The notes under the pieces: generated by a model
Database searches by the model: none
Told to the model about the DNA's origin: nothing
What the model saw: only the letters and a program-made list of their open reading frames with translations
Virus record (IMG/VR): IMGVR_UViG_2537562231_000018
Source: a virus
Lineage: Duplodnaviria; Heunggongvirae; Uroviricota; Caudoviricetes
Direction: 5' to 3' (one strand)
DNA length: 24,218 bases
In this document: positions 10,122 through 23,256 of the stretch, piece by piece
Layout: each line of letters opens with the position of its first letter
How positions within the stretch are numbered: the stretch's first letter is position 1
Made by a program: the position numbers and the translations under genes

Positions 10122-10277
10122 TTACTTCTCAGATTCGTAAGCTGTGAAGACAGCGACCTCCGTCTGGCCGGTTCGGATTCGTACCTCGCAGAGGTCTTTC
10201 CTCGTTACCAGTACCGTTACAACGACGGTAATACAGATGACGATCAGGGCGATTAGCATCGCCTTTTGCTGCTTCAT
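10122..10277 (-). CDS. hok: Hok/Gef-family type I toxin (HokD/RelF-like)
   Basis: MKQQKAMLIALIVICITVVVTVLVTRKDLCEVRIRTGQTEVAVFTAYESEK, 51 aa, near-identical in pattern to E. coli Hok/Gef proteins. The tracker ORF is extended upstream in frame to 10334. Confidence 0.85.
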   Translation of the reverse strand: MKQQKAMLIALIVICITVVVTVLVTRKDLCEVRIRTGQTEVAVFTAYESEK

Positions 10278-10325
10278 AGCCTGCTGCTCCTTGCCTTTCG
10301 GCGCGTAAGAGGCTAATCTAAGTGT

Positions 10326-10398
10326 GCAAGTCATAGATATGGCCTCAGATTAATGTTAAGCGTCCTGCAAGACGCATAATGTTAACTGGGGCTTTTCT
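10326..10398 (+). ncRNA. sok: candidate Sok antisense RNA (position and promoter inferred)
   Basis: Plus-strand promoter TTGCCT (10291..10296) -17 bp- TAATCT (10314..10319) faces away from hok and overlaps the hok leader; downstream hairpin GCGTCCTGCAAGACGC and a T-rich stretch. Exact ends not determinable by eye. Confidence 0.3.
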
Positions 10399-10527
10399 CT
10401 GTCTGCCTTACGTCGGCATGCCCGAGGCAGACAGCCTCAAGCACCCGCAGCAATTCTACTTAACTCTCGCTTTACCGCAAACCGTTTTACCCGATATGGG
10501 AATGCCCATATCGCAATGAATTCAGTT

Positions 10528-12532: not shown

Positions 12533-12629
12533 TTCACTACCGCCATTTGTAAGCGTCGTCTCAGCACCGTCTGGCAGATCCTGAAATTCCTGAGAGAATA
12601 GTGGACACCAAATATGGTGGACGCTATCC

Positions 12630-13034
12630 ATGAAATCATTAACCGCAGTGCGTAAAAAAAGCCCTAATTATCCCGTTGAGTTCAAAATCAAAATGGTTGA
12701 ACTCTCGCATCGACCAGAGATCTCCGTAGCGCAACTCGCTCGTGAGCATGGGATCAACGATAATTTGCTGTTCAAGTGGCGCCAGTACTGGCGCGAAGGA
12801 AAACTACGTCCTCCTTCAACAACAGAAAACAACGTGCCTGAGCTGCTCCCGATAACACTTGATGCCGAAGATGTTGTCCCTACAACCTCCCCCCGGTCAC
12901 AACCTGTAGCTGCTGCGACACCTGAATCACTCAATATCAGCTGTGAAGTGACGTTCCGGCACGGATCACTCCGTCTGAATGGTGCCATCAGCGAAAATAT
13001 CCTGAACCTGCTGATACGGGAGCTCAAACGTTGA
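12630..13034 (+). CDS. IS66-family accessory protein (orfA/TnpA)
   Basis: 134 aa; EFKIKMVELSHRPEISVAQLAREHGINDNLLFKWRQYW HTH region typical of IS66 orfA. Confidence 0.85.
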   Translation: MKSLTAVRKKSPNYPVEFKIKMVELSHRPEISVAQLAREHGINDNLLFKWRQYWREGKLRPPSTTENNVPELLPITLDAEDVVPTTSPRSQPVAAATPESLNISCEVTFRHGSLRLNGAISENILNLLIRELKR

Positions 13035-13378
13035 TCCCATTACCATCAGGGACAAAGATCTGGCTGGTCGCTGGCATCACCGATATGAGAAACGGCTTCA
13101 ACGGCCTGGCGGCAAAGGTGCAGACGACGCTGAAAGACGATCCGATGTCAGGTCACGTTTTTATCTTCCGTGGGCGTAATGGCAGTCAGGTAAAGCTCCT
13201 CTGGTCTACCGGCGATGGACTGTGTCTGCTGACCAAACGGCTGGAGCGCGGCCGCTTCGCCTGGCCGTCAGCCCGGGATGGCAAAGTGTTCCTCACACCG
13301 GCACAGCTGGCGATGCTGCTGGAAGGTATCGACTGGCGGCAGCCTAAAAGACTGCTTACGTCCCTGACTATGTTGTAA
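13031..13378 (+). CDS. IS66-family orfB (TnpB)
   Basis: 115 aa; KIWLVAGITDMRNGFNGLAAKV..HVFIFRGRNG..KLLWSTGDGLCLLTKRLE, the characteristic IS66 orfB pattern; ATGA overlap with orfA. Confidence 0.85.
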   Translation: MIPLPSGTKIWLVAGITDMRNGFNGLAAKVQTTLKDDPMSGHVFIFRGRNGSQVKLLWSTGDGLCLLTKRLERGRFAWPSARDGKVFLTPAQLAMLLEGIDWRQPKRLLTSLTML

Positions 13379-13426
13379 GCCTCTTTATCCTGGTCGACGC
13401 TGAATGAGCCTGGTAATATACCCGGT

Positions 13427-14965
13427 ATGAGCAGCTCACTTCCTGACGATATCAATGCACTGAAACGTCTCCTTGCCGAACAGGAGGCGCTGAACCGTGC
13501 CCTGCAGGAAAAGCTGAACGAGCGTGAACGCGAAATAGACCATCTGCAGGCACAGCTGGATAAGCTGCGCCGGATGAACTTCGGCAGCCGCTCGGAAAAA
13601 GTCTCCCGTCGTATCGCACAGATGGAAGCTGACCTGAAGGCACTTCAGAAAGAAAGTGATACCCTTACCGGTCGGGTTGACGACCCGGCCGTGCAGCGCC
13701 CGCTGCGTCAAACCCGCACCCGCAAACCGTTCCCCGAATCACTCCCCCGCGATGAAAAACGGCTGCTGCCGGCAGCGTCATGCTGCCCGGAATGTGGAGG
13801 CTCGCTGAGCTATCTGGGTGAGGATGCCGCCGAACAGCTGGAGCTGATGCGCAGCGCCTTCCGGGTTATCCGGACTGTACGTGAAAAGCATGCCTGTACT
13901 CAGTGCGATGCCATCGTGCAGGCCCCCGCGCCTTCACGGCCCATCGAGCGGGGTATCGCAGGACCGGGGCTGCTGGCCCGCGTGCTGATCTCAAAGTATG
14001 CAGAGCACACCCCGCTGTACCGCCAGTCTGAAATGTACGGCCGCCAGGGCGTGGAGCTGAGTCGTTCACTGCTGTCGGGCTGGGTGGATGCATGCTGCCG
14101 GCTACTGTCACCGCTGGAAGAAGCGCTTCAGGACTATGTGCTGACTGACGGTAAGCTCCATGCTGATGACACGCCTGTCCCGGTGCTGTTGCCAGGCAAT
14201 AAGAAAACGAAGACCGGGCGGTTATGGACCTACGTTCGTGACGACCGTAACGCCGGGTCAACGCTGGCGCCGGCGGTGTGGTTCGCTTACAGCCCGGACA
14301 GAAAAGGCATCCATCCGCAGACCCATCTTGCGGGGTTCAGTGGTGTACTGCAGGCGGATGCATACGCCGGGTTCAACGAGCTGTACCGGGATGGCCGGAT
14401 AACGGAAGCCGCTTGTTGGGCTCACGCCCGCCGTAAAATCCACGATGTGCACGTTCGCACCCCGTCAGCCCTGACGGAGGAAGCGCTGAAACGGATCGGC
14501 GAACTGTACGCCATCGAGGCAGAGATAAGGGGAATGACGGCGGAGCAGCGCCTTGCCGAACGTCAGTTGAAAACGAAACCGCTGCTGAAATCCCTGGAAA
14601 GCTGGCTGCGTGAAAAGATGAAAACCCTGTCGCGACACTCAGAACTGGCGAAAGCGTTCGCATACGCCCTGAACCAGTGGCCGGCGCTGACGTACTATGC
14701 AGATGATGGCTGGGCTGAGGCGGACAATAACATCGCTGAAAATGCGTTGCGGATGGTCAGTCTGGGCCGCAAAAACTACCTGTTCTTCGGTTCGGATCAT
14801 GGAGGAGAGCGGGGAGCGCTGCTGTACAGCCTGATCGGGACGTGCAAACTGAACGGAGTGGAGCCAGAAAGCTACCTCCGCTATGTCCTTGACGTCATAG
14901 CCGACTGGCCGATAAACCGGGTCGGCGAACTGCTCCCCTGGCGCGTAGCACTGCCGACTGAATAA
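13427..14965 (+). CDS. IS66-family transposase (orfC/TnpC), intact
   Basis: 512 aa; N-terminal coiled coil, CCPECGG..C.QC zinc motif, [27 protein letters not shown] and downstream catalytic region. Confidence 0.9.
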
Positions 14966-15087
14966 CACATCCCCGTCAATACGGTTCTTGCTGCACGCTT
15001 ACCGCCATTTCGAACGGCCTCCTGATGTTCTGAGGGTGCAGAAATCCCTCCGGTTAAGGATTAAATTTTTAACAGTGCTAAATTTAA

Positions 15088-15444
15088 TTATTCAGTTCTT
15101 GATTTTGCCGCCCTGCGTATCCGCGCTTTCGCGTTACGCTCAATCTGAATTAGCTTTTCTATATTTCTCCGCCTTTCCCGTTCCTCCTGGCGCAAGAGCC
15201 TTACATCATCTGCCAGTCTGGTTTCTCTTTTCGCCACAGAGAGCATCCAGTCAAATGGCTCCACAACTGCACCGCAGATTTTACAGCGGACCTGACGCTC
15301 TTTTTCGTCAACCCGGACAGAGGCGTGATGACAATATGGTCTTTCCGATGGCTCATAAAGAAAATTAACCTGATTACGTGGGTCATCCTCTTTTACCGGA
15401 AATAAAACAATATTACTTAACTCATCTTCTGGTTTTATTTCCAT
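15088..15444 (-). CDS. hypothetical zinc-ribbon protein (start chosen at ATG with AAGGAGAGG SD; tracker GTG start at 15501)
   Basis: 118 aa from MEIKPEDELSNIV..; CHH..CKICG motif; strong SD before the ATG at 15444. Confidence 0.45.
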   Translation of the reverse strand: MEIKPEDELSNIVLFPVKEDDPRNQVNFLYEPSERPYCHHASVRVDEKERQVRCKICGAVVEPFDWMLSVAKRETRLADDVRLLRQEERERRRNIEKLIQIERNAKARIRRAAKSRTE

Positions 15445-15501
15445 GCTCCTCTCCTTTGATGCGAATGCCAGCGGCAATTGAAGCCTGATAGCTAATTTCA
15501 C

Positions 15502-15927
15502 TCACAGCACCACCTCCTGAAAATTCCCCTGATAAAACGCCAGCACGCGCTGCATAACTTCGCTCTTCCGGCACTCGCTACAGATTATGTTCTGACGCCT
15601 GTCATAACGACGTATTTCTCCGTCTGGTAACGACCAGATAAGGTCCGGATCAACCACAGGTGTTTTTTTCTTCAGCTTTGCCCTTGAGAGTTTTTTGCGG
15701 GCGTTTTGCCAGTCCTTACGAGCCTGTTCAGACGGGAATAACCCGTAACCAGAGTTGTATACATCACCACTGGCAACCAGCTCTCTGGCGAGAACGCTCA
15801 TCAGATATCTTGTCGCACCTGTCTTGGCTTCCAGTTGCCGTAACGTCTCGCGCCCACTCCGGCGTACTAGCTCAACAACCTGCCCTTTAATTTTTTCTCG
15901 CTCTTCTTGTGTAAAAACTTTTGCCAC
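15502..15927 (-). CDS. hypothetical early-region protein
   Basis: 141 aa from a GTG start with AGGAGG 5 nt upstream; CSEC motif near the C-terminus. Confidence 0.45.
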   Translation of the reverse strand: MAKVFTQEEREKIKGQVVELVRRSGRETLRQLEAKTGATRYLMSVLARELVASGDVYNSGYGLFPSEQARKDWQNARKKLSRAKLKKKTPVVDPDLIWSLPDGEIRRYDRRQNIICSECRKSEVMQRVLAFYQGNFQEVVL

Positions 15928-15967
15928 AAGCCCTCCTGAAAATTACCTCATGACCTGAAATAAACAC

Positions 15968-17053
15968 TTACCCCCTGAAGCCTGGCGGAATTTCGGTATC
16001 CGGTTCAGAAACATGATTCACACAACGCTGGTTGTTCGTGCCGCTTACCGGGAGCAACCAGGGGTTTTCAAAATTCCGGTCCGGTCCAAAAAACGTCGTC
16101 GCTCGCTGAACAAATTCCGTTCCCGTTTTCCCGGTAGTCGCCAGGTATCTTGCGTAACGCCTCACGCCATCCAGCATGGCCTCTGGTGGCACCCCCTCGC
16201 GTAATCTGGCCTTCCAGGCACTGAAAGCGGATTTCTTCGGGTTTGCTCCGGCACGCAACGGGTATTCCCGCCAGACCTGTTCGAACACATCCGGATAATC
16301 CACTCGTCCCACAGGCTGCCCGGTGTTTTCCGGGACTACCTGATCGGCTTCCCGCTGAATGGCGGAATCGGCTTCAGGCTGCTGCAGTTGGTGTGATTGT
16401 TCCGGCTTTGCGGTCATCGCCTGCTGCACAGCGCCCGAATCGGCTTCCGGTGTCGTGCCTGCTGGTTGACCAGGATTGACGTTCTGAACATCCCCTGCCT
16501 GGTTCGTGGCGATTTTTTCGCCATGAAGCATAGTATTTTTATCCTGCTCCTGTTCTTTCTCCTGTTCCTGTTCTTGGCTTAGAAGCCCCTTTAAAGCCTC
16601 TTCGAAGCCCCTTGCTGAATTCCGGCGATTATTCCGCCTCACATCCAGATGGAAATCCGTTTTATATCTGTCGTAAAAGGCTGACAGAAAGGCGTTTTCA
16701 GGTAATGATGCATACTCATTCCTGACACCTGCACAACGGTTATCTCCAGGCTTCAACGTTTCCCCAACCTGCCAGGCTGCCATTTCATGGACCCAGACCA
16801 TCTCGGCATCATGGTCATAGCTACAAAAACCAGCTTCAACAGCCCTTTTAAGCCCCTTCGAAGCCCCTTCCGGACCAAGCCCGGTTTCATGAGCAAGGTA
16901 CAAAACTGGCAGGTAATACAAACCCAACATATTTGCGTGAGGGGATGTCATCAGGTAAAAAGCAACAACTTGCGCTTCTGCACCCGCCTTTCTAAGTTCT
17001 CTCCCCGTTTCTCCCAGCCAGAATCGCGGGGAAACTTTTGCATAATCACGCAT
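15968..17053 (-). CDS. putative replication initiation / replisome-organiser protein
   Basis: 361 aa from ATG 17053 (GAGGTG SD); tracker TTG start at 17074. Assigned by position downstream of the YdaS/YdaT-like genes and a C-terminal region (DVFEQVWREYP..SAFSAWKARL) reminiscent of phage replication proteins; contains a short QEQEQEKEQEQ low-complexity linker. Confidence 0.45.
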   Translation of the reverse strand: MRDYAKVSPRFWLGETGRELRKAGAEAQVVAFYLMTSPHANMLGLYYLPVLYLAHETGLGPEGASKGLKRAVEAGFCSYDHDAEMVWVHEMAAWQVGETLKPGDNRCAGVRNEYASLPENAFLSAFYDRYKTDFHLDVRRNNRRNSARGFEEALKGLLSQEQEQEKEQEQDKNTMLHGEKIATNQAGDVQNVNPGQPAGTTPEADSGAVQQAMTAKPEQSHQLQQPEADSAIQREADQVVPENTGQPVGRVDYPDVFEQVWREYPLRAGANPKKSAFSAWKARLREGVPPEAMLDGVRRYARYLATTGKTGTEFVQRATTFFGPDRNFENPWLLPVSGTNNQRCVNHVSEPDTEIPPGFRG

Positions 17054-17059
17054 GTTCAC

Positions 17060-17095
17060 CTCGTCTGGAGCCAAACCTTCCTCTGGTTATAATCT
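17060..17095 (+). promoter_or_regulatory. candidate promoter for the plus-strand gene 17133..17528
   Basis: Perfect -10 TATAAT at 17088..17093 with a weak -35 (CTGGAG) 17 bp upstream; followed by a strong SD AGGAGG at 17121..17126. Confidence 0.4.
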
Positions 17096-17132
17096 GTGAT
17101 TCACTAATCAACAGAACCAGAGGAGGTTCGAA

Positions 17133-17528
17133 ATGGATTTTGCAACTATCACAAGTAGCGTTGTGTTGAGTGCGTGTGTTGCTGGCGTGGTTTCGCTGGT
17201 TAATGGTGCCTGGCAACGCAAATCGGAACGAACCATTGAAGCGCAACGCCGGGCTGCTGAAGCCAGAGCAAAAATAAGAGAAATGGCTCTCACCCTCGCA
17301 TTGAAAGAATGGGAGCTCCACCAAACCATATCGAAGGCAAAGGGGTATGGTGTCAGCGGCCCAGAAGTTTACGTCTTTCGATACTTTCGTATGCTCAACC
17401 TGATGGAGGAAGACAAATTCACGATTGAAAATCTCAGACTGATCCAGTACGACTCCATGTGTGCTGTTGCAGCAATTCAGGCAGAGATCGAGCGATATCG
17501 GGAGAAAAACGGCCTCCCGATGCCATAA
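17133..17528 (+). CDS. hypothetical membrane-anchored coiled-coil protein, oriented against the surrounding early operon
   Basis: 131 aa; N-terminal TM helix (ITSSVVLSACVAGVVSLVNGAW) then a charged helical region (RKSERTIEAQRRAAEARAKIREMALTLALKEWELHQ..); own -10 and strong SD. Confidence 0.55.
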   Translation: MDFATITSSVVLSACVAGVVSLVNGAWQRKSERTIEAQRRAAEARAKIREMALTLALKEWELHQTISKAKGYGVSGPEVYVFRYFRMLNLMEEDKFTIENLRLIQYDSMCAVAAIQAEIERYREKNGLPMP

Positions 17529-17532
17529 ACAA

Positions 17533-17754
17533 TCAGCGTTTTTCATCTTTCCAAATCCTCATATCAGGCTTGCGCCCAATGAACCGACGAAGACAATTTA
17601 AAGTCCATCGGGTGAAGTAATCCCTGAAACCAAAGAGATACCAGGTGAACAGATTCACGATAAAATGTCCGGCCAGAGCCCCACCAATACCACAGGCAAG
17701 AACAGTAAAAAAATCAGGTAGATTCACAGCCCCCTCCGTCATTGTTAACGCCAT
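17533..17754 (-). CDS. hypothetical small membrane protein
   Basis: 73 aa with a central hydrophobic segment (FFTVLACGIGGALAGHFIVNLFTWYLFGF); 8 nt downstream of the YdaT-like stop; weak SD. Confidence 0.35.
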   Translation of the reverse strand: MALTMTEGAVNLPDFFTVLACGIGGALAGHFIVNLFTWYLFGFRDYFTRWTLNCLRRFIGRKPDMRIWKDEKR

Positions 17755-17762
17755 CCGTGCTT

Positions 17763-18188
17763 TTAGTGCATCACCACGGCATTTCCTGCAGGGCCACCAC
17801 GGTTCATCTGATTGAAACCGGCAATCGCCACTGCGACAAAATCATCAGCGTCTCTCACCAGTCGTTCCCGCGTCTCCACCAGCTCCCGAAAATAGGCTGA
17901 ACTGTGGCTGCGCATTCGGGCCACCAGCAAAGGTGGCATTGCCTTTTCGATCGCTGGTAACAACGCCTGAATTTTTTCAACAGCATCAGGGGTGTCTTTC
18001 TCTACCCAGCGGAAAATTTTCTGTGTATTGCGAGCCAGGGCTTCCGGATGGCTGTCGTCATACAGTTCAGGAAACGTTATACCCAACTCAAAATAAGCCT
18101 GGGTTATTCCAGCTGCTGGAACTTTTTCGCCATCAGGACGCGCCCAGGCATTCATCGCCATGCGGATGTGTTCATGCTTGATTTTCAT
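17763..18188 (-). CDS. ydaT: YdaT-like protein (CII-position gene of Rac-type immunity regions)
   Basis: 141 aa starting MKIKHEHIRMAMNAWARPDGEKVP, the YdaT-family start as I recall it; directly downstream of and overlapping the YdaS-like gene. Confidence 0.6.
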   Translation of the reverse strand: MKIKHEHIRMAMNAWARPDGEKVPAAGITQAYFELGITFPELYDDSHPEALARNTQKIFRWVEKDTPDAVEKIQALLPAIEKAMPPLLVARMRSHSSAYFRELVETRERLVRDADDFVAVAIAGFNQMNRGGPAGNAVVMH

Positions 18189-18453
18189 GAATCAAGCTCC
18201 TAGAAAGTGGTTGTGTTAACGTTTTGGTATCTTCCAGCTCGGGCCAAATATTCATCCAATCAAAAGGCCTTAGTTGCTGACGTGTAACTTCACCATTACT
18301 GGCTCGCTCAATAAGGACACATAACGATGCCCCTAACACTTGACCTTTACTCAATGCCTTTCTTAGATAACCGATGCTGGTACCACACTCGCATGCAAAC
18401 ATACGCTGTTCATCTGACGAAAGAGAATTGAGAAATATTCTTAATTCTTCCAT
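18172..18453 (-). CDS. ydaS: YdaS-like HTH protein (Cro-position regulator)
   Basis: 93 aa; HTH-like segment QRMFACECGTSIGYLRKALSKGQ; AAGGAG SD; divergent from the repressor across an operator-bearing intergenic region. Confidence 0.6.
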   Translation of the reverse strand: MEELRIFLNSLSSDEQRMFACECGTSIGYLRKALSKGQVLGASLCVLIERASNGEVTRQQLRPFDWMNIWPELEDTKTLTQPLSRSLIHENQA

Positions 18454-18482
18454 AGCTACTCCTTAGTAAACACAGCAAAGAA

Positions 18483-18518
18483 TACCCACAGGTAAACAAA
18501 AGTAAATACCCACAGGTT
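18483..18518. promoter_or_regulatory. OR-like operator pair: TACCCACAGGTA (18483..18494) and TACCCACAGGTT (18507..18518), overlapping divergent promoters
   Basis: Two near-palindromic 12-mers 24 bp apart between the YdaS-like and repressor genes; the same motif recurs twice downstream of the repressor gene. Confidence 0.6.
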
Positions 18519-18553
18519 GTTTACCTTGCAGTAATCGCATCTATTATTTACCT

Positions 18554-18972
18554 ATGGACAAATATGAATTTAGACGACAGCAACTCATCAAAATTCGTGA
18601 TGAGAAATGCGATGGTAAAGCGGTTAACGTGGCCAGAAAGATCGGGCGCGAGCCTTCTTATGTATCAAGAATGTTGTACCCAGAGGGGAAAAAGGGAAAA
18701 AACGGATCGCTGATGATATGGTGGAGATTATCGAAGAGTCCTTTGGGTTACCCCGGGGATGGATGGATGGTATCGTTTCATCATCAACGAACACAGCCTC
18801 CAGTTATGAAACAAGGGTTCTAACGCCACGACAACGTATTTTTTTAGATCTCTTAGACGAACTGCCAGAAAGTGAAGCGGATAACTTATTAAAAACTCTT
18901 GAAGAGAAAAAACAGTATTACAATATGATCTACGAAGAAATCCGTAAAAAGAAAGCACAAAACGCATCATAG
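18554..18972 (+). CDS. RacR/cI-type repressor candidate, split by an apparent frameshift at the A6 run 18697..18702
   Basis: ORF 18554..18823 carries an N-terminal HTH (GKAVNVARKIGREPSYVSRML); ORF 18718..18972 continues in the +2 frame. One extra A in the A6 run would join them into a roughly 140-aa protein. The ATG has no SD and sits 7 nt after a TATTAT -10, so the mRNA would be leaderless like lambda cI. Confidence 0.5.
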
Positions 18973-19015
18973 CTCACCAAACAACTAGTCACCAGTTAAG
19001 ACACCGCAAAAAAGT

Positions 19016-19052
19016 TACCCATGGGTATTTACTTTTTAAATACCTATGGGTA
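19016..19052. promoter_or_regulatory. OL-like operator pair: TACCCATGGGTA (19016..19027) and TACCTATGGGTA (19041..19052)
   Basis: Perfect and near-perfect 12-bp palindromes of the same family as the 18483/18507 sites, 25 bp apart, upstream of the rightward small-gene cluster. Confidence 0.55.
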
Positions 19053-19238
19053 TCCTTCTTTTCATACCAACCCACCCCGCCCCACAGAATGCAGGGCAAT
19101 ACTTCGAGTTACCAGGCAGTGGTCAGGGGTTAAGTAGCCAGCCCGAGGCGTAAGAACATGACGGCAGGGTTCAACTTTAATAACTATGCAGCAGGTTTTT
19201 GTTCCGCTACCCCGGCGTTAAGGGGAAATGAGGTCAGC

Positions 19239-19394
19239 ATGGATACTATCGATCTTGGCAACAACGAATCTCTGGTGTACGGCGTATTTCCAAACCAGGA
19301 CGGCACGTTCACCGCAATGACGTATACCAAAAGCAAAACGTTTAAAACCGAAAATGGTGCCCGTCGCTGGCTGGAAAGAAACTCAGGTGAGTGA
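19239..19394 (+). CDS. hypothetical small protein (51 aa; YdaF/YdaG-like by position)
   Basis: MDTIDLGNNESLVYGVFPNQDGTFTAMTYTKSKTFKTENGARRWLERNSGE with GAGGT SD; tracker ORF extends upstream to 19158. Confidence 0.4.
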   Translation: MDTIDLGNNESLVYGVFPNQDGTFTAMTYTKSKTFKTENGARRWLERNSGE

Positions 19395-19395
19395 T

Positions 19396-19524
19396 ATGGA
19401 TTTCGACACAATCATGGAAAAGGCTTACGAAGAATACTTCGAAGGCCTTGCCGAAGGCGAAGAAGCTCTCAGCTTCAGTGAGTTTAAACAGGCGCTTTCC
19501 AGTTCGGCAAAATCTAACGGCTGA
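19396..19524 (+). CDS. hypothetical small acidic protein (42 aa)
   Basis: MDFDTIMEKAYEEYFEGLAEGEEALSFSEFKQALSSSAKSNG; GGTGA SD; start 1 nt after the previous stop. The overlapping 69-aa GTG ORF 19391..19600 is in another frame and looks non-coding. Confidence 0.35.
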   Translation: MDFDTIMEKAYEEYFEGLAEGEEALSFSEFKQALSSSAKSNG

Positions 19525-19553
19525 TAAGCGAAACAGCACCGCGAGGAATCAGT

Positions 19554-19772
19554 ATGCAGAAACGAGAACCCGTCATCATCGCGCCAGACTATACCGATGA
19601 TGAACTTTATGAGTGGATGCGCCAGAAAATTAATGCAGCGCAGGATCTGAAATGGGCTAATGAAGCCAGGGCTAAGCAGGCTGAAAATCTGTCCGCTCTG
19701 GAGCAGGATATCACCAGGCTGGAAAAAGCAGCGGCATTAAGCATTGCCAGAATGATTACATACCCGCGTTAA
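19554..19772 (+). CDS. hypothetical small protein (72 aa)
   Basis: GAGGAA SD upstream of the ATG; charged helical composition; same size class as Kil-type proteins in Rac but not verified. Confidence 0.4.
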   Translation: MQKREPVIIAPDYTDDELYEWMRQKINAAQDLKWANEARAKQAENLSALEQDITRLEKAAALSIARMITYPR

Positions 19773-20174
19773 TAGCTAACCAACGAAGCTAAGGTTGGTA
19801 ATTAAGGAGTTCTCCACGGGTGAGGTGGAGTGCGTACGCCGGACACGGGTGAGCATCCGGCACTGACAGTTTACTGAAAGGATATTTCCATGAAAAGTCA
19901 GACCATAACGCGAAAGCGCACGGCGAGGTAGCTGGTTCATAGATAACCTGTCGTTAAATTTTCGTCGACCGTGCGCTTCCGGTTGTGGCACTCCGCGAAA
20001 TGGCGCGGCGGTAAGTATGGCGGGGTTATTCCTTCCCCGTTGAGGACATCGGGTTGTCAGGTTGACCATACGCTTAAGTGACAACCCCGCTGCAACGCCC
20101 TCTGTTATCAATTTTCTGGTGACGTTTGGCGGTATCAGTTTTACTCCGTGGCTGCTCTGCCGCCCTTTTTAAAG

Positions 20175-20322
20175 TGAATTTTGTGATGCGGTGAATGCGG
20201 CTCAGCGCACGCGGAACAGTTAAAACCAAAAACAGTGTTATGGGTGGATTCTCTGTATCCGGCGTTAATTGTTAACTGGTTAACGTCACCTGGAGGCACC
20301 AGGCACCGCATCACAAAATTCA
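20175..20322. repeat. 19-bp perfect inverted repeat (TGAATTTTGTGATGCGGTG at 20175..20193; CACCGCATCACAAAATTCA at 20304..20322) enclosing 110 bp
   Basis: Exact reverse-complement arms read directly from the sequence; right arm ends 17 nt upstream of the ATG at 20340; enclosed segment contains two GTTAAC palindromes. Confidence 0.6.
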
Positions 20323-20339
20323 TTGTTGAGGACGCGATA

Positions 20340-20441
20340 ATGGAAACGTTATTACCAAACGTTAATACGTCTGAAGGTTGTTTTGAAATTGGTGTCACTA
20401 TCAGTAACCCTGTATTTACTGAAGATGCCATTAACAAGAGA
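20340..20441 (+). pseudogene. 5' portion (34 codons) of a small gene interrupted by IS66 copy 2; 3' portion at 22982..23068
   Basis: METLLPNVNTSEGCFEIGVTISNPVFTEDAINKR then the IS; joining across the IS and one copy of the target duplication restores a 62-codon ORF whose TGA overlaps the ATG of the downstream gene at 23065. Confidence 0.45.
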
Positions 20442-20526
20442 GTAAGCGTAAACTGACCGCCGTATGTAGCCATCAGACGAGAATTGGTAACTTAGACGCC
20501 CATCTGATATAGACGGACATCTAAGT

Positions 20527-20952
20527 ATGGAATTACAGGACTGGCGAAAAGAACCTCGTAAAAACTATTCGAATGAATTCAAACTTCGTATGGTGGAACT
20601 GGCATCACAACCTGGAGCTTGTGTTGCACAGATTGCACGTGAAAATGGCGTCAATGATAATGTTATTTTCAAATGGCTCAGGCTCTGGCAGAACGAAGGG
20701 CGTGTTTCGCGGCGTCTTCCGGTAACGACCTCTTCTGACACTGGCGTTGAATTATTACCTGTAGAAATAACGCCGGATGAGCAGAAAGAACCTGTGGCGG
20801 CCATTGCGCCGTCTTTATCCACTTCCACTCAGACCAGAGTCAGTGCCAGTTCCTGCAAGGTGGAATTCCGTCACGGTAACATGACGCTGGAAAATCCATC
20901 GCCAGAGCTGCTCACAGTGTTGATCCGTGAACTGACCGGGAGGGGAAGATGA
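20527..20952 (+). CDS. IS66-family accessory protein (orfA), copy 2
   Basis: 141 aa; EFKLRMVELASQPGACVAQIARENGVNDNVIFKWLRLW. Confidence 0.85.
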   Translation: MELQDWRKEPRKNYSNEFKLRMVELASQPGACVAQIARENGVNDNVIFKWLRLWQNEGRVSRRLPVTTSSDTGVELLPVEITPDEQKEPVAAIAPSLSTSTQTRVSASSCKVEFRHGNMTLENPSPELLTVLIRELTGRGR

Positions 20953-21299
20953 TCTCACTCCCATCAGGTACCCGTATCTGGCTCGTTGCCGGCGTTACCG
21001 ATATGCGTAAATCCTTCAACGGACTGGGAGAACAGGTACAACATGTGCTGAATGATAATCCCTTCTCCGGTCACCTGTTTATCTTCCGTGGCCGACGGGG
21101 TGACACCGTCAAAATTCTTTGGGCTGATGCTGATGGTCTGTGCCTGTTCACCAAACGCCTGGAGGAAGGCCAGTTTATCTGGCCTGCGGTACGTGACGGC
21201 AAGGTATCCATTACCCGCTCGCAACTGGCAATGCTCCTCGATAAGCTGGACTGGCGTCAGCCAAAAACTTCCAGCCGTAACTCACTGACAATGTTGTAA
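20949..21299 (+). CDS. IS66-family orfB (TnpB), copy 2
   Basis: 116 aa; RIWLVAGVTDMRKSFNGLGEQV..HLFIFRGRRGDTVKILWADADGLCLFTKRLE. Confidence 0.85.
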   Translation: MISLPSGTRIWLVAGVTDMRKSFNGLGEQVQHVLNDNPFSGHLFIFRGRRGDTVKILWADADGLCLFTKRLEEGQFIWPAVRDGKVSITRSQLAMLLDKLDWRQPKTSSRNSLTML

Positions 21300-21329
21300 A
21301 AAACTCCTGACCGCATTATAAAAACGGTC

Positions 21330-22943
21330 ATGAGTCAGAAATACCTCATTCGCATCGCAGAGCTGGAAAGGTTGCTCTCTGAGCAGGCTGAAGCCCTCCG
21401 TCAGAAAGACCAGCAACTGAGTCTGGTTGAAGAGACGGAAGCCTTCCTGCGCTCTGCACTGACACGTGCCGAAGAAAAGATCGAAGAAGATGAACGGGAA
21501 ATAGAACATCTGCGGGCTCAGATAGAAAAACTGCGCCGGATGCTGTTCGGTACCCGTTCTGAAAAACTGCGTCGTGAAGTTGAACTGGCTGAGGCTCTGC
21601 TGAAACAACGTGAACAGGACAGCGATCGTTAACAGTGGGCGGGAAGACGATCCTCAGGTTCCCCGCCAGTTGCGACAGTCGCGCCATCGTCGTCCGTTAC
21701 CGGCACACCTTCCCCGTGAAATACACCGCCTGGAGCCAGAAGAAAGCTGTTGCCCGGAGTGTGGCGGTGAGCTGGATTATCTGGGGGAAGTCAGCGCAGA
21801 ACAACTGGAACTGGTGAGCAGCGCCCTAAAAGTGATCCGCACAGAACGGGTAAAAAAAGCCTGTACAAAATGTGACTGCATCGTTGAAGCACCGGCACCA
21901 TCCCGCCCGATAGAGCGTGGTATCGCGGGCCCGGATTACTTGCCCGCGTGTTAACGGGAAAATACTGCGAACATCTGCCACTGTATCGTCAGAGTGAAAT
22001 CTTTGCCCGCCAGGGTGTCGAACTGAGCCGGGCCTTACTCTCCAACTGGGTTGACGCGTGCTGCCAGTTAATGACACCGGTGAATGATGCCCTGTACCGT
22101 TATGTAATGAACACCCGCAAGGTTCACACTGATGACACACCGGTAAAGGTACTGGCACCGGGTCAGAAAAAGGCGAAAACAGGGCGTATCTGGACGTATG
22201 TCCGGGATGATCGCAATGTGGGTTCGTCATCTCCTCCAGCGGTCTGGTTCGCGTACTCGCCGAACCGGCAGGGGAAACACCCGGAGCAACACCTCCGCCC
22301 CTTCCGGGGTATCCTGCAGGCGGATGCGTTCACAGGTTACGACAGGTTGTTCAGTGCAGAACGTGAAGGTGGTGCACTGACAGAAGTTGCGTGCTGGGCC
22401 CATGCCCGGCGAAAAATCCACGATGTATACATCAGCAGCAAAAGTGCGACGGCAGAAGAAGCCCTGAAGCGAATCAGTGAACTGTACGCCATCGAGGATG
22501 AAATACGGGGATTACCGGAGTCAGAGCGTCTTGCCGTCAGGCAGCAGCGAAGCAAAGTGTTACTGACGTCGCTGCATGAATGGATGGTGGAGAAGAATGG
22601 TACGCTGTCGAAAAAATCCAGACTGGGCGAAGCGTTCAGCTATGTACTGAATCAGTGGGATGCCCTCTGTTATTACAGTGATGACGGTCTGGCGGAGGCG
22701 GATAATAATGCTGCGGAAAGAGCGCTTCGTGCAGTCTGTCTAGGAAAGAAAAACTTTATGTTCTTTGGCAGCGATCACGGCGGCGAGCGTGGAGCACTGT
22801 TGTACGGGCTGATCGGCACCTGCCGTCTGAACGGTATCGATCCGGAAGCGTATCTGCGCCATATCCTGAGCGTACTGCCGGAATGGCCTTCCAACCGAGT
22901 TGACGAACTCCTGCCATGGAACGTAGTACTCACCAATAAATAA
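21330..22943 (+). pseudogene. IS66-family transposase (orfC) broken into three ORFs by two frameshifts
   Basis: ORFs 21330..21632, 21610..21954 and 21948..22943 together align along the copy-1 TnpC; the second break coincides with a G-run (GGCCCGGATTAC where copy 1 has the equivalent of GGCCCGGGATTAC). Confidence 0.8.
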
Positions 22944-23064
22944 GCGTCAATACGGTGCTCCGTTGACGCTTACACAAGAGAAAACACGAACGGGAGTTAT
23001 TAAATAAAATATGCATTCTTTCAATGCTGGCCCGTTTACGTCCGATACAAAAAGGATGCTGGCA

Positions 23065-23256
23065 ATGAATACAGCATTTGCACTTGTTCTGACAGTTTTT
23101 CTTGTTTCCGGAGAGCCAGTTGATATTGCAGTCAGTGTTCACAGGACAATGCAGGAGTGTATGACTGCAGCAACCGAACAGAAAATTCCCGGTAACTGTT
23201 ACCCGGTCGATAAAGTTATTCACCAGGATAATATCGAAATCCCGGCAGGTCTTTAA
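23065..23256 (+). CDS. hypothetical small secreted protein (63 aa, signal peptide)
   Basis: MNTAFALVLTVFLVSGEPVDIAVSV.. with AAGGA SD; tracker ORF starts further upstream at 23011. Confidence 0.45.
   Translation: MNTAFALVLTVFLVSGEPVDIAVSVHRTMQECMTAATEQKIPGNCYPVDKVIHQDNIEIPAGL

What the first reader, a model, noticed from the sequence alone, without database searches (positions are those of the whole stretch)
18554..18972. Repressor candidate split by a single-base frameshift in an A6 run
The N-terminal HTH frame and the C-terminal frame overlap at 18718..18823 and would fuse with one extra A at 18697..18702. If genuine, the prophage would lack a full-length repressor (perhaps sustained by the hok addiction module or by being cryptic); if it is a homopolymer sequencing error, the repressor is intact.
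Basis: partly seen in the sequence, partly recalled or inferred. Interest (0 to 1): 0.5.

Follow-up and report, generated by a model that had tools for sequence, protein, structure and literature searches.

The report
Prophage repressor gene missing one A
A well-conserved 139-residue prophage immunity repressor gene is split into two reading frames here by one missing A in a run of seven; this is most likely a sequencing error in a draft contig that carries many similar one-base errors, so the finding is ordinary.

Summary
Window 18554..18972 is one gene split by a missing A (A6 at 18697-18702). E. coli CFT073 carries the identical gene with A7 and an intact 139-aa ORF. The exact A7 probe matches 709 of about 822 complete E. 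coli genomes that carry the gene; the exact A6 probe matches 2.

The protein sits in the DicA/RacR repressor slot of a Qin/Rac-like lambdoid prophage. On one side are cro-like and cII-like (YdaS/YdaT) genes, on the other ydfABC-dicF-dicB. Its N-terminal DNA-binding domain spans the break and is 64-82% identical to that of S24/LexA-family phage repressors. Its C-terminal helices resemble those of DicA. Four TACCYAYRGGTA palindromes flank the gene and are probable operators.

The window is a whole contig of draft E. coli 3431. Sister contigs with the same IS insertion in dicB are 99.9% identical but have A7. The contig carries about 10 further one-base indels absent from its closest relatives, and seven of them break other genes. 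I rate a homopolymer sequencing error at about 0.7, a real recent mutation at about 0.2 and programmed recoding or phase variation at 0.04 or less. Novelty is low.

The parts
18554..18972 (+). Immunity-repressor gene. It is 139 aa when intact and is frameshifted here after codon 49-50.
   Evidence: Identical to CFT073 WP_000362155.1 except A7 versus A6. Full-length match to phrog_5736, E = 4e-70. Homologues are listed.
18697..18702 (+). A6 run, the site of the one-base deficit. It is A7 in the intact allele.
   Evidence: The exact A7 probe matches 709 RefSeq complete genomes and the exact A6 probe matches 2.
18697..18703 (+). A_AAA_AAC heptamer, in register with the N-terminal frame. A -1 slip here would enter the C-terminal frame.
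   Evidence: Read from the sequence. The motif is a low-efficiency -1 frameshift site in E. coli and is used by IS elements (PMC4066793). That it acts here is inference only.
18554..18823 (+). N-terminal frame as it stands: 89 aa, made of native residues 1-49, then Asn in place of the invariant Lys50, then out-of-frame residues.
   Evidence: This fragment was seen on only one other contig in the protein collection.
18718..18972 (+). C-terminal frame ORF of 84 aa from an internal ATG. Gene callers annotate this piece in A6 assemblies.
18483..18494 (.). Probable operator (OR-like), TACCCACAGGTA.
   Evidence: TACCYAYRGGTA with at most 1 mismatch gives 7 strand matches at 4 sites, all flanking the gene, against 0.32 expected.
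18507..18518 (.). Probable operator (OR-like), TACCCACAGGTT, 24 bp from the first.
18549..18560 (.). Degenerate operator-like site (2 mismatches) that overlaps the repressor start codon.
   Evidence: This is weak evidence.
18520..18547 (+). Promoter-like hexamers TTTACC-16-TATTAT. The -10 ends 6 nt before the ATG, which suggests a leaderless mRNA as for lambda cI and paaR2.
   Evidence: a consensus match that is no more than chance gives. The analogy comes from PMC8630535. Inference.
19016..19027 (.). Probable operator (OL-like), the perfect palindrome TACCCATGGGTA, upstream of ydfA.
19041..19052 (.). Probable operator (OL-like), TACCTATGGGTA, 25 bp from the previous site.
18172..18453 (-). 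Divergent cro-like (YdaS-type) regulator, 93 aa.
   Evidence: PF15943 E = 9e-6, below the cut-off; phrog_35 E = 5e-23. RefSeq calls it 'transcriptional regulator'.
17763..18188 (-). cII-like (YdaT-type) regulator, 141 aa.
   Evidence: PF06254 E = 7e-10; phrog_163 'CII-like transcriptional activator' E = 3e-44.
19239..19772 (+). ydfA-ydfB-ydfC homologues, the start of the leftward (dicBF-type) operon that the repressor would control.
   Evidence: DUF1391 E = 5e-28. CFT073 and K-12 annotation.
20114..20165 (+). DicF sRNA gene, intact.
   Evidence: Rfam RF00039, 75 bits against a gathering score of 48.
20340..20441 (+). dicB 5' part (codons 1-34), cut off by an IS insertion.
   Evidence: Translation compared with K-12 DicB.
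20442..22973 (+). ISEc23 (IS66 family) inserted in dicB. It has an 8-bp target duplication, ACAAGAGA, at 20434-20441 and 22974-22981. Its transposase is in three pieces.
22982..23068 (+). dicB 3' remainder.
   Evidence: Read.

Best explanation
Window 18554..18972 is a single gene for the CI-type immunity repressor of a Qin/Rac-like lambdoid prophage. When intact it is a 139-aa protein. It has a five-helix lambda-repressor-like DNA-binding domain (residues 1 to about 75), a disordered linker, and a DicA-like two-helix C-terminal domain that is probably for oligomerisation and lacks any S24 self-cleavage module. By analogy with DicA, PaaR2 and lambda CI, it would bind the TACCYAYRGGTA palindromes on both sides of its own gene. 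That would shut off the divergent cro/cII-like operon and the downstream ydfABC-dicF-dicB operon, and relief would come from an antirepressor or a bistable switch rather than from RecA cleavage. In this contig the gene reads A6 where the normal allele has A7. That cuts the protein in the loop between helix 3 and helix 4. Most likely the missing A is a homopolymer under-call in the draft assembly of E. coli 3431, and the gene is intact in the real strain. Shown: the single-gene identity, the normal allele, the private status of A6 and the excess of indels in the contig. Inferred: the operator assignment, the mode of repression and induction, and the artefact verdict.
For: The two frames are one gene.
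- CFT073 is identical apart from A7 and has an intact 139-aa CDS.
- The KKRIADDM stretch across the break is nearly invariant in 47 homologues.
- The repaired protein matches phrog_5736 full length.

Normal allele.
- The exact A7 probe matches 709 genomes and the exact A6 probe matches 2, out of about 822 complete genomes that carry the gene.

Repressor role.
- RacR occupies the same slot in a collinear prophage, and DicA occupies it in Qin.
- The N-terminal domain is 64-82% identical to that of S24/LexA-family repressors.
- The C-terminus matches DicA at E = 1e-7 and NF007257 positions 81-131.
- The AF2 model has pLDDT 86. Its best PDB match is the Salmonella phage Rep repressor of the Rep-antirepressor complex 5d50.
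- Operator palindromes occur only around the gene: 7 strand matches at 4 sites against 0.32 expected.

Artefact.
- The window is contig ADUM01000122.1 of E. coli 3431.
- Sister contigs with the same dicB::ISEc23 junction are 99.93% and 99.88% identical over 5.7 kb. Their only indel difference from the window is A7, and they have an intact ORF.
- The contig has about 10 further one-base indels absent from its closest relatives. Seven are short homopolymer contractions.
- Together these indels break the PerC-like, lysis, small-ORF, Q, tnpC (twice) and exonuclease genes.
- Window 1300-3100 is 4-5 nt shorter than every listed best RefSeq hit at 99.3% identity.
- Three broken fragments I looked up occur only in this assembly.
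Against: - No reads are available, so the artefact verdict is statistical only.
- A7 tracts are real slippage hot spots (PMC4066793).
- The prophage is visibly decaying: it has two IS66-family insertions, and one is a bona fide transposition into dicB with a target-site duplication. Selection on the repressor could therefore be relaxed.
- A6 also appears in at least 8 other assemblies, on at least 4 SNP haplotypes and in different prophage contexts. One of them, ETEC1703, has intact neighbouring genes.
- The 5.7-kb stretch shared with the sister contigs contains only this one indel. The local error rate there is not obviously high.
- The exact look-ups for broken fragments would also fail if a sister differed by a single substitution.
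- The sequencing platform of this assembly was not verified.
Confidence: 0.7

Rival explanations
1. The A6 is real: a recent A7-to-A6 replication-slippage mutation has turned the repressor of a decaying cryptic prophage into a pseudogene. The strain tolerates this because dicB is already disrupted by ISEc23, because other lytic functions are also broken, or because another prophage supplies the same repressor in trans. An elevated indel rate, for example from a mismatch-repair defect, would explain the other private one-base indels.
For: The homopolymer is a mutational hot spot (PMC4066793). dicB is interrupted by an IS with an 8-bp target duplication, and a second IS66 element lies at about 12549-14999. 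A6 recurs on several haplotypes and in several contexts. All substitutions that separate the window from its sisters are transitions. Some genomes hold two copies of this gene.
Against: The sisters differ by only 3-6 substitutions in 5.7 kb, yet the contig would need about 10 private frameshifting or homopolymer indels in 24 kb. DicF and the cro/cII-like genes are intact. In the studied analogues, loss of the repressor is harmful: dicA deletion was studied in strains lacking dicBF, and DicF and DicB are toxic division inhibitors (PMC10448788). Silencing racR causes growth arrest (abstract listed).
Confidence: 0.22
2. The split is functional. Either the A-run is a phase-variable tract that stochastically switches the repressor off, or the A6 allele is expressed by recoding. 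Recoding could be a -1 ribosomal slip on A_AAA_AAC, giving a full-length K50N protein, or transcriptional slippage that adds an A and restores the wild-type protein.
For: The heptamer is in exactly the right register, and the target frame is the -1 frame. A_AAA_AAC shifts at above 0.1% without a stimulator in E. coli and is used by IS elements. A6 and A8 alleles both occur in public assemblies.
Against: At least 709 of about 822 complete genomes have the fused ORF. The closest sisters have A7. The A-run is not conserved at the DNA level in 38 homologues from other species, where the Lys-Lys pair is coded as AAG AAA, AAA AAG, AGA AAA and so on. The downstream RNA has no significant structure, z = 0.16. 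K50 is invariant, so a K50N product may be impaired. No A8 allele is found among RefSeq complete genomes.
Confidence: 0.04
3. The two frames are two unrelated small genes: an HTH protein of 89 aa and a separate 84-aa protein.
For: Gene callers annotate the 84-aa ORF alone in several assemblies, for example WP_001301414.1.
Against: One conserved domain runs straight across the junction in all homologues, including the 220-240-aa S24 repressors. The out-of-frame tail of the 89-aa ORF has no homologues. I see no clear Shine-Dalgarno sequence before the ATG at 18718.
Confidence: 0.01

Closest known systems
DicA, repressor of the Qin cryptic prophage (E. coli K-12 b1570)
   Same: It occupies the same genomic slot, between a divergent cro-like gene and ydfA-ydfB-ydfC-dicF-dicB. 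It is of similar size (135 versus 139 aa). The C-terminal 46 residues are homologous: 33% identity, E = 1e-7, with the shared LPESE motif. Neither has an S24 peptidase domain. DicA represses dicBp and dicC and is relieved by the antirepressor Rem or by a bistable switch (PMC10448788).
   Different: The N-terminal DNA-binding domains are unrelated at the sequence level. The whole protein scores 23.9 bits against the DicA model, whose cut-off is 101. The operators are therefore expected to differ, which means a different immunity type.
RacR, repressor of the Rac cryptic prophage (b1356)
   Same: It is a positional analogue. In strain HCP5S3_I4, racR sits in exactly this slot of a collinear prophage. 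It is likewise paired with YdaS-type and YdaT-type genes.
   Different: BLASTP finds no detectable sequence similarity, best E = 2.3. RacR is 158 aa.
PaaR2 / YdaS / YdaT immunity region of CP-933P (E. coli O157:H7)
   Same: A CI analogue faces Cro-like YdaS and CII-like YdaT. Operators lie in the roughly 100-bp divergent region, and a second operator set sits at a PL-type promoter on the other side. The repressor mRNA is leaderless (PMC8630535).
   Different: The operator consensus differs: GTTTAGTAA half-sites in CP-933P against TACCYAYRGGTA here. No toxin-antitoxin genes follow the repressor here. I did not compare the sequence with PaaR2.
S24/LexA-family CI repressors of enterobacterial prophages (221-242 aa, PF00717)
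   Same: The N-terminal roughly 75-residue DNA-binding domain is 64-82% identical, and that includes the KKRIADDM stretch that spans the frameshift.
   Different: Those proteins carry a C-terminal S24 self-cleavage domain and so can be induced by the SOS response. The window protein has a DicA-like helical tail instead, so the two differ by a domain swap.
Rep repressor of Salmonella phage, in complex with its antirepressor (PDB 5d50 / 5d4z)
   Same: It is the best structural match to the AF2 model: Foldseek E = 7e-4, probability 1.0. It also has an HTH N-domain plus a helical C-domain, and the entry shows it bound to an antirepressor.
   Different: Identity is only 16-21% and the TM-score is about 0.45. 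The relative orientation of the two domains in the model is not reliable, because the linker (residues 76-87) has pLDDT below 50.
IS1 insA-insB' programmed -1 frameshift
   Same: It uses the same slippery heptamer, A_AAA_AAC, with the downstream ORF in the -1 frame (PMC4066793).
   Different: In IS elements the two-ORF layout is the conserved state. Here it is a rare deviation from a fused ORF.

Membership tests
phrog_5736 / WP_000362155-type prophage transcriptional regulator | Full-length match to the family profile | tested here: met
   The repaired 139-aa protein aligns 1-139 to profile positions 1-133 of 133, E = 4.4e-70. It is identical to CFT073 WP_000362155.1. As it stands in the window, the ORF is broken.
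DicA (NCBIfam NF007257 / PRK09706) | Whole-protein score above the curated cut-off of 101 bits | tested here: not met
   The score is 23.9 bits, and only residues 86-136 match profile positions 81-131. BLASTP similarity is confined to the C-terminal 46 residues.
DicA-type immunity module | Repressor gene between a divergent cro-like gene and the ydfABC-dicF-dicB operon | tested here: met
   Gene order in the window and in CFT073 matches K-12 Qin.
RacR family | Sequence similarity to RacR | tested here: not met
   Best BLASTP E = 2.3.
LexA/S24 self-cleaving CI repressors | C-terminal Peptidase_S24 domain (PF00717) | tested here: not met
   The protein has no Pfam hit. In the alignment it ends where the S24 domain of its relatives begins. 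The N-terminal domain is shared.
Lambda-repressor-like (HTH_XRE) DNA-binding fold | Five-helix bundle with helix 2 and helix 3 forming the HTH | tested here: inconclusive
   The AF2 model has helices at 3-18, 23-30, 34-40 and 54-63 and a short turn at 70-72, with pLDDT above 90. Foldseek hits to C.Esp1396I, HigA and lambda cI N-domains have probability 0.9-1.0 but E = 0.1-0.3. No Pfam HTH model matches.
Immunity repressor with flanking operators (lambda CI logic) | Repeated palindromic sites in the promoter regions on both sides of the gene | tested here: met
   TACCYAYRGGTA occurs at 18483, 18507, 19016 and 19041 and nowhere else in the 24 kb, against 0.32 matches expected. Binding was not tested.
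Programmed -1 ribosomal frameshift gene | Slippery heptamer X_XXY_YYZ in the zero frame, with the downstream ORF in the -1 frame | tested here: met
   A_AAA_AAC lies at 18697-18703 in register, and the C-terminal frame is the -1 frame.
Programmed -1 ribosomal frameshift gene | The two-ORF arrangement is conserved among relatives | tested here: not met
   The fused A7 ORF is present in at least 709 of about 822 genomes and in the closest sisters. The A-run is not conserved in other species.
Programmed -1 ribosomal frameshift gene | Downstream stimulatory RNA structure | tested here: not met
   Window 18690-18810 folds no better than shuffled sequence, z = 0.16.
Phase-variable contingency locus | Homopolymer tract maintained by selection, with frequent on and off length variants | tested here: not met
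   The tract is not conserved in 38 homologues. The exact A6 probe matches 2 RefSeq complete genomes and the A8 probe matches none. Heterogeneity within a strain cannot be tested without reads.

The most novel reading that the evidence does not exclude
The A7 tract inside the repressor gene acts as a stochastic off-switch. Recurrent A7-to-A6 (or A8) slippage, seen on at least 4 haplotypes in unrelated prophage contexts, would inactivate an SOS-insensitive repressor in a subpopulation. Low-level -1 slippage on the resulting A_AAA_AAC heptamer, or transcriptional slippage, would keep enough repressor to make the state survivable. That would be an unrecognised, heritable route to derepressing dicF/dicB-type prophage operons.
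Probability: 0.04. Interest if true: 0.5.

Novelty: already known. Interest (0 to 1): 0.1.

Why it matters
It matters little for biology. The gene is a catalogued, widely distributed prophage repressor, and the break is most likely an assembly error, or at most a trivial recent lesion in a decaying prophage. The practical lesson is for annotation: this contig, and probably the whole E. coli 3431 draft, carries many one-base homopolymer indels, so apparent pseudogenes in it should not be taken at face value. Two side results are modestly useful. First, this repressor type has an N-terminal DNA-binding domain with no Pfam model, shared with S24 self-cleaving repressors, and joined here to a DicA-like tail; this is a clean domain swap between SOS-inducible and SOS-insensitive repressors. 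Second, its probable operators can be read directly from the sequence.

Tried and rejected
- Two separate genes: rejected, because one conserved domain crosses the junction.
- RacR homology: none found.
- Pfam: no hit for the repaired protein.
- PDB sequence search with a profile: nothing significant.
- Downstream frameshift-stimulating RNA structure: none, z = 0.16.
- Conservation of the A-run in other species: absent.
- A8 allele in RefSeq complete genomes: none.
- The window as a whole in RefSeq complete E. coli genomes: best coverage 65%, so the source is not in that set. It was later identified as contig ADUM01000122.1 by exact protein look-up.
- The dicB::IS junction in IMG/VR: no match.
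- Literature on the assembly accession or strain 3431, to learn the sequencing platform: nothing found. My recollection that drafts from about 2010 like this one were pyrosequenced is unverified, and I did not use it as evidence.
- GenBank phage records: none carries the gene at high DNA identity; only the segment upstream of ydfA matches.
- About 110 of the roughly 822 gene-carrying genomes have a substitution or indel in the probe, and I did not resolve their run length.

Full report
**1. The observation**

An ATG at 18554 opens an 89-codon frame that ends at 18823. An ATG at 18718 opens an 84-codon frame that ends at 18972. [quoted passage not shown] The run at 18697-18702 is A6.

I aligned 18540-18990 with the best-matching complete genome, E. 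coli CFT073. Every base is identical except for one extra A in this run. CFT073 therefore has a single 420-nt CDS of 139 aa, WP_000362155.1.

**2. One gene or two**

It is one gene.
- The repaired protein matches PHROG 5736 ('transcriptional regulator') from end to end, E = 4e-70.
- A homology search returned 317 relatives.
- In alignments of 16 and 47 relatives, residues K46, K50, R51, I52, E61, F64, L66, G69, W70 and D72 are invariant. The break at codon 50 lies in the middle of this conserved block.
- The out-of-frame tail of the 89-aa ORF has no relatives.

**3. What the gene is**

*Genomic slot.* The window is the early region of a Qin/Rac-like lambdoid prophage. On the minus strand, reading away from the gene, lie:
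- a cro-like YdaS-type gene (18172-18453);
- a cII-like YdaT-type gene (17763-18188);
- a DnaD-like replication gene and a Ren-like gene;
- further on, hok/sok, DUF968, RusA, the Q antiterminator, the lysis genes and the terminase small subunit.

On the plus strand, downstream of the gene, lie ydfA, ydfB, ydfC, DicF (20114-20165, Rfam 75 bits), dicB, ydfD and an exonuclease. In K-12 Qin this slot holds dicA. In a collinear prophage of strain HCP5S3_I4 it holds racR.

*Domain make-up.*
- The protein has no detectable similarity to RacR.
- Its last 46 residues are homologous to the C-terminus of DicA: 33% identity, E = 1e-7, with the shared LPESE motif. They also match the DicA NCBIfam model at positions 81-131.
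- Its first roughly 75 residues are 64-82% identical to the N-terminal domains of 221-242-aa LexA/S24-family phage repressors from Salmonella, Klebsiella, Pantoea, Edwardsiella and others.
- The protein is thus a domain swap: a DNA-binding head shared with SOS-cleavable repressors, joined to a DicA-type non-cleavable tail.

*Structure model.* An AlphaFold model (pLDDT 86) has helices at 3-18, 23-30, 34-40 and 54-63, a disordered linker at 76-87, and two long C-terminal helices. Its best PDB match is the Rep repressor of a Salmonella temperate phage, solved in complex with its antirepressor (5d50). Generic HTH_XRE proteins follow in the ranking.

*Probable operators.* The 12-bp palindrome TACCYAYRGGTA occurs at 18483 and 18507, between the divergent genes. 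It occurs again at 19016 and 19041, between the repressor gene and ydfA, and nowhere else in the 24 kb. That is 7 strand matches against 0.32 expected. A degenerate copy overlaps the start codon. This OR-plus-OL layout matches what was shown experimentally for PaaR2/YdaS/YdaT in CP-933P (PMC8630535) and for DicA/DicC in Qin (PMC10448788).

*Inferred mechanism.* The protein binds these sites and silences both the cro/cII-like operon and the dicBF-type operon. Relief would come from an antirepressor or by bistable switching, not by RecA-mediated cleavage.

**4. How common A6 is**

I used 71-73-nt probes around the run against the complete RefSeq E. coli genomes.

| Probe | Genomes with an exact match |
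|---|---|
| A6 | 2 of 822 that carry the gene |
| A7 | 709 of 821 |
| A8 | 0 |

The rest differ by a substitution or indel within the probe, and I did not resolve their run length.

The 84-aa fragment is on 61 contigs, and the 89-aa fragment on one.

I fetched ten loci where the 84-aa ORF had been called. Eight have A6. They lie on at least four SNP haplotypes and in different prophage contexts. A few assemblies appear to have A8, judging from ORFs that read through from the +1 frame. Run-length deviations therefore recur. Several of these assemblies also show other broken genes or other homopolymer indels nearby, for example L002, L011 and L012.

In 38 homologues from other species the Lys-Lys pair is coded in many ways. 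An A7 run is present in only six of them, so the tract itself is not under selection.

**5. Real lesion or artefact in this window**

*Source of the window.* Exact look-up of window-specific proteins shows that the window is the entire contig ADUM01000122.1 (24,218 bp) of GCA_000184765.2, Escherichia coli 3431.

*Sister contigs.* The truncated DicB-IS fusion peptide is a marker of this particular prophage. It is also found in other draft assemblies. Their contigs L058 (plus four similar places not shown) and L059 span window 14876-20568.

| Sister contig | Identity to window | Substitutions | Indel differences |
|---|---|---|---|
| L058 | 99.93% | 3 | 1 (the A-run) |
| L059 | 99.88% | 6 | 1 (the A-run) |

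Both sisters have A7 and a called 139-aa gene. Two non-coding run-length differences from CFT073, at 19008 and 20035, are shared with the sisters and so are genuine.

*Other indels in the contig.* Compared with its nearest relatives, the contig carries many other single-base indels.

| Position | Change in window | Location / effect |
|---|---|---|
| 1454 | T4 to T3 | PerC-like gene |
| 1746 | A8 to A7 | not assigned to a gene |
| 2280 | one G lost | lysis gene |
| 2905 | C3 to C2 | small ORF |
| 2971 | T4 to T3 | intergenic |
| 4405 | A4 to A3 | intergenic |
| 7763 | T6 to T5 | splits the Q antiterminator |
| 21631 | one A gained | ISEc23 transposase |
| 21930 | C4 to C3 | ISEc23 transposase (now in three pieces) |
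| 24037 | G2 to G3 | cuts the exonuclease at 251 aa |

Over 1300-3100 the window is 4-5 nt shorter than every listed best RefSeq match, at 99.3% identity. The three broken fragments I looked up (the Q piece, the middle transposase piece and the exonuclease piece) exist only in this assembly.

About ten private one-base indels in 24 kb, breaking eight genes counting the repressor, is far more than expected for a lineage that differs from its sisters by 0.07-0.12% in substitutions. It is the pattern of homopolymer miscalls.

*Functional expectation.* This points the same way. DicF and the cro/cII-like genes are intact here, and in the studied analogues loss of the repressor is harmful (racR silencing abstract listed).

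*Verdict.* I rate an artefact at about 0.7. A real, very recent slippage mutation remains possible at about 0.2. The arguments for it:
- A7 runs are true hot spots (PMC4066793).
- The prophage is visibly decaying. ISEc23 sits in dicB with an 8-bp target duplication, and a second IS66 element lies at about 12549-14999.
- The 5.7 kb shared with the sisters has no other indel.

**6. Recoding**

The A6 allele happens to create A_AAA_AAC in register with the N-terminal frame, and the C-terminal frame is the -1 frame. A -1 slip would therefore give a full-length protein with N in place of the invariant K50. An extra A added by RNA polymerase would give the wild-type protein.

A_AAA_AAC is a low-efficiency motif in E. 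coli, above 0.1% without a stimulator, and is used by IS elements (PMC4066793). No downstream structure stands out, z = 0.16. The two-ORF state is not conserved. If the allele is real it may be slightly leaky, but nothing suggests a programmed event.

**7. Verdict**

The break is most likely a sequencing artefact in a draft contig. The gene is an already catalogued DicA-slot prophage repressor. Interest is low.

Noticed in passing
window 1454, 1746, 2280, 2905, 2971, 4405, 7763, 21631, 21930, 24037: Single-base indels, mostly homopolymer contractions, that the closest relatives lack. Seven of them break the PerC-like, lysis, small-ORF, Q-antiterminator, ISEc23 transposase (two sites) and exonuclease genes. 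The whole contig, and probably the whole assembly, looks prone to indel errors.
   Followed up: partly
window 21631-21930 (inside ISEc23 tnpC): Between the two compensating indels lies a cluster of 8 substitutions, at spacings that are multiples of 3 (21798-21900), relative to other ISEc23 copies. No copy in 5,426 genomes is closer than 99.5%. It looks like a patch from a different IS66 relative, arising by gene conversion or by a chimeric consensus of collapsed IS copies.
   Followed up: partly
window 20434-20441 and 22974-22981: ISEc23 is inserted in dicB after codon 34, with a perfect 8-bp target-site duplication, ACAAGAGA. The same junction is present in several other draft genomes and metagenome scaffolds, so this dicB knock-out lineage is circulating.
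   Followed up: yes
window 18554-18780 (residues 1 to about 75 of the repaired protein): The N-terminal DNA-binding domain has no Pfam model, although it is widespread. It is shared by short DicA-tailed repressors and by 220-240-aa S24/LexA-family repressors across Enterobacterales, and more distantly in Neisseria, Burkholderiales and Xanthomonas.
   Followed up: partly
window 17133-17528 (+): A 131-aa ORF on the opposite strand lies between the cII-like gene and the replication gene. It matches phrog_36733 (unknown function) full length. It is absent from CFT073 at this position but present in the sister contigs, so it may be a moron-type insert.
   Followed up: no
window 12549-14999 (approximate): A second, different IS66-family element with apparently intact tnpA, tnpB and tnpC is inserted in the nin-like region, beside a DUF7167-type gene.
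   Followed up: no
window 6487-6659 (-) and 10272-10446 (-): Rfam finds an STnc100 sRNA (101 bits) downstream of the SASA esterase gene and a sok antisense RNA (115 bits) next to a hokD-like ORF (10122-10334).
   Followed up: no
window 3924: A 6-bp deletion removes one copy of a tandem ACAGTA repeat relative to strain D1. Unlike the one-base indels, this looks like a genuine polymorphism.
   Followed up: no
L002 (NZ_CP116925.1, strain MLI104K2), aligned to window 18839-18840: One of the two RefSeq complete genomes with A6 also has the T7 run inside the same gene shortened to T5, and an annotated frameshifted exonuclease nearby. Its A6 is therefore also suspect as an assembly error.
   Followed up: partly
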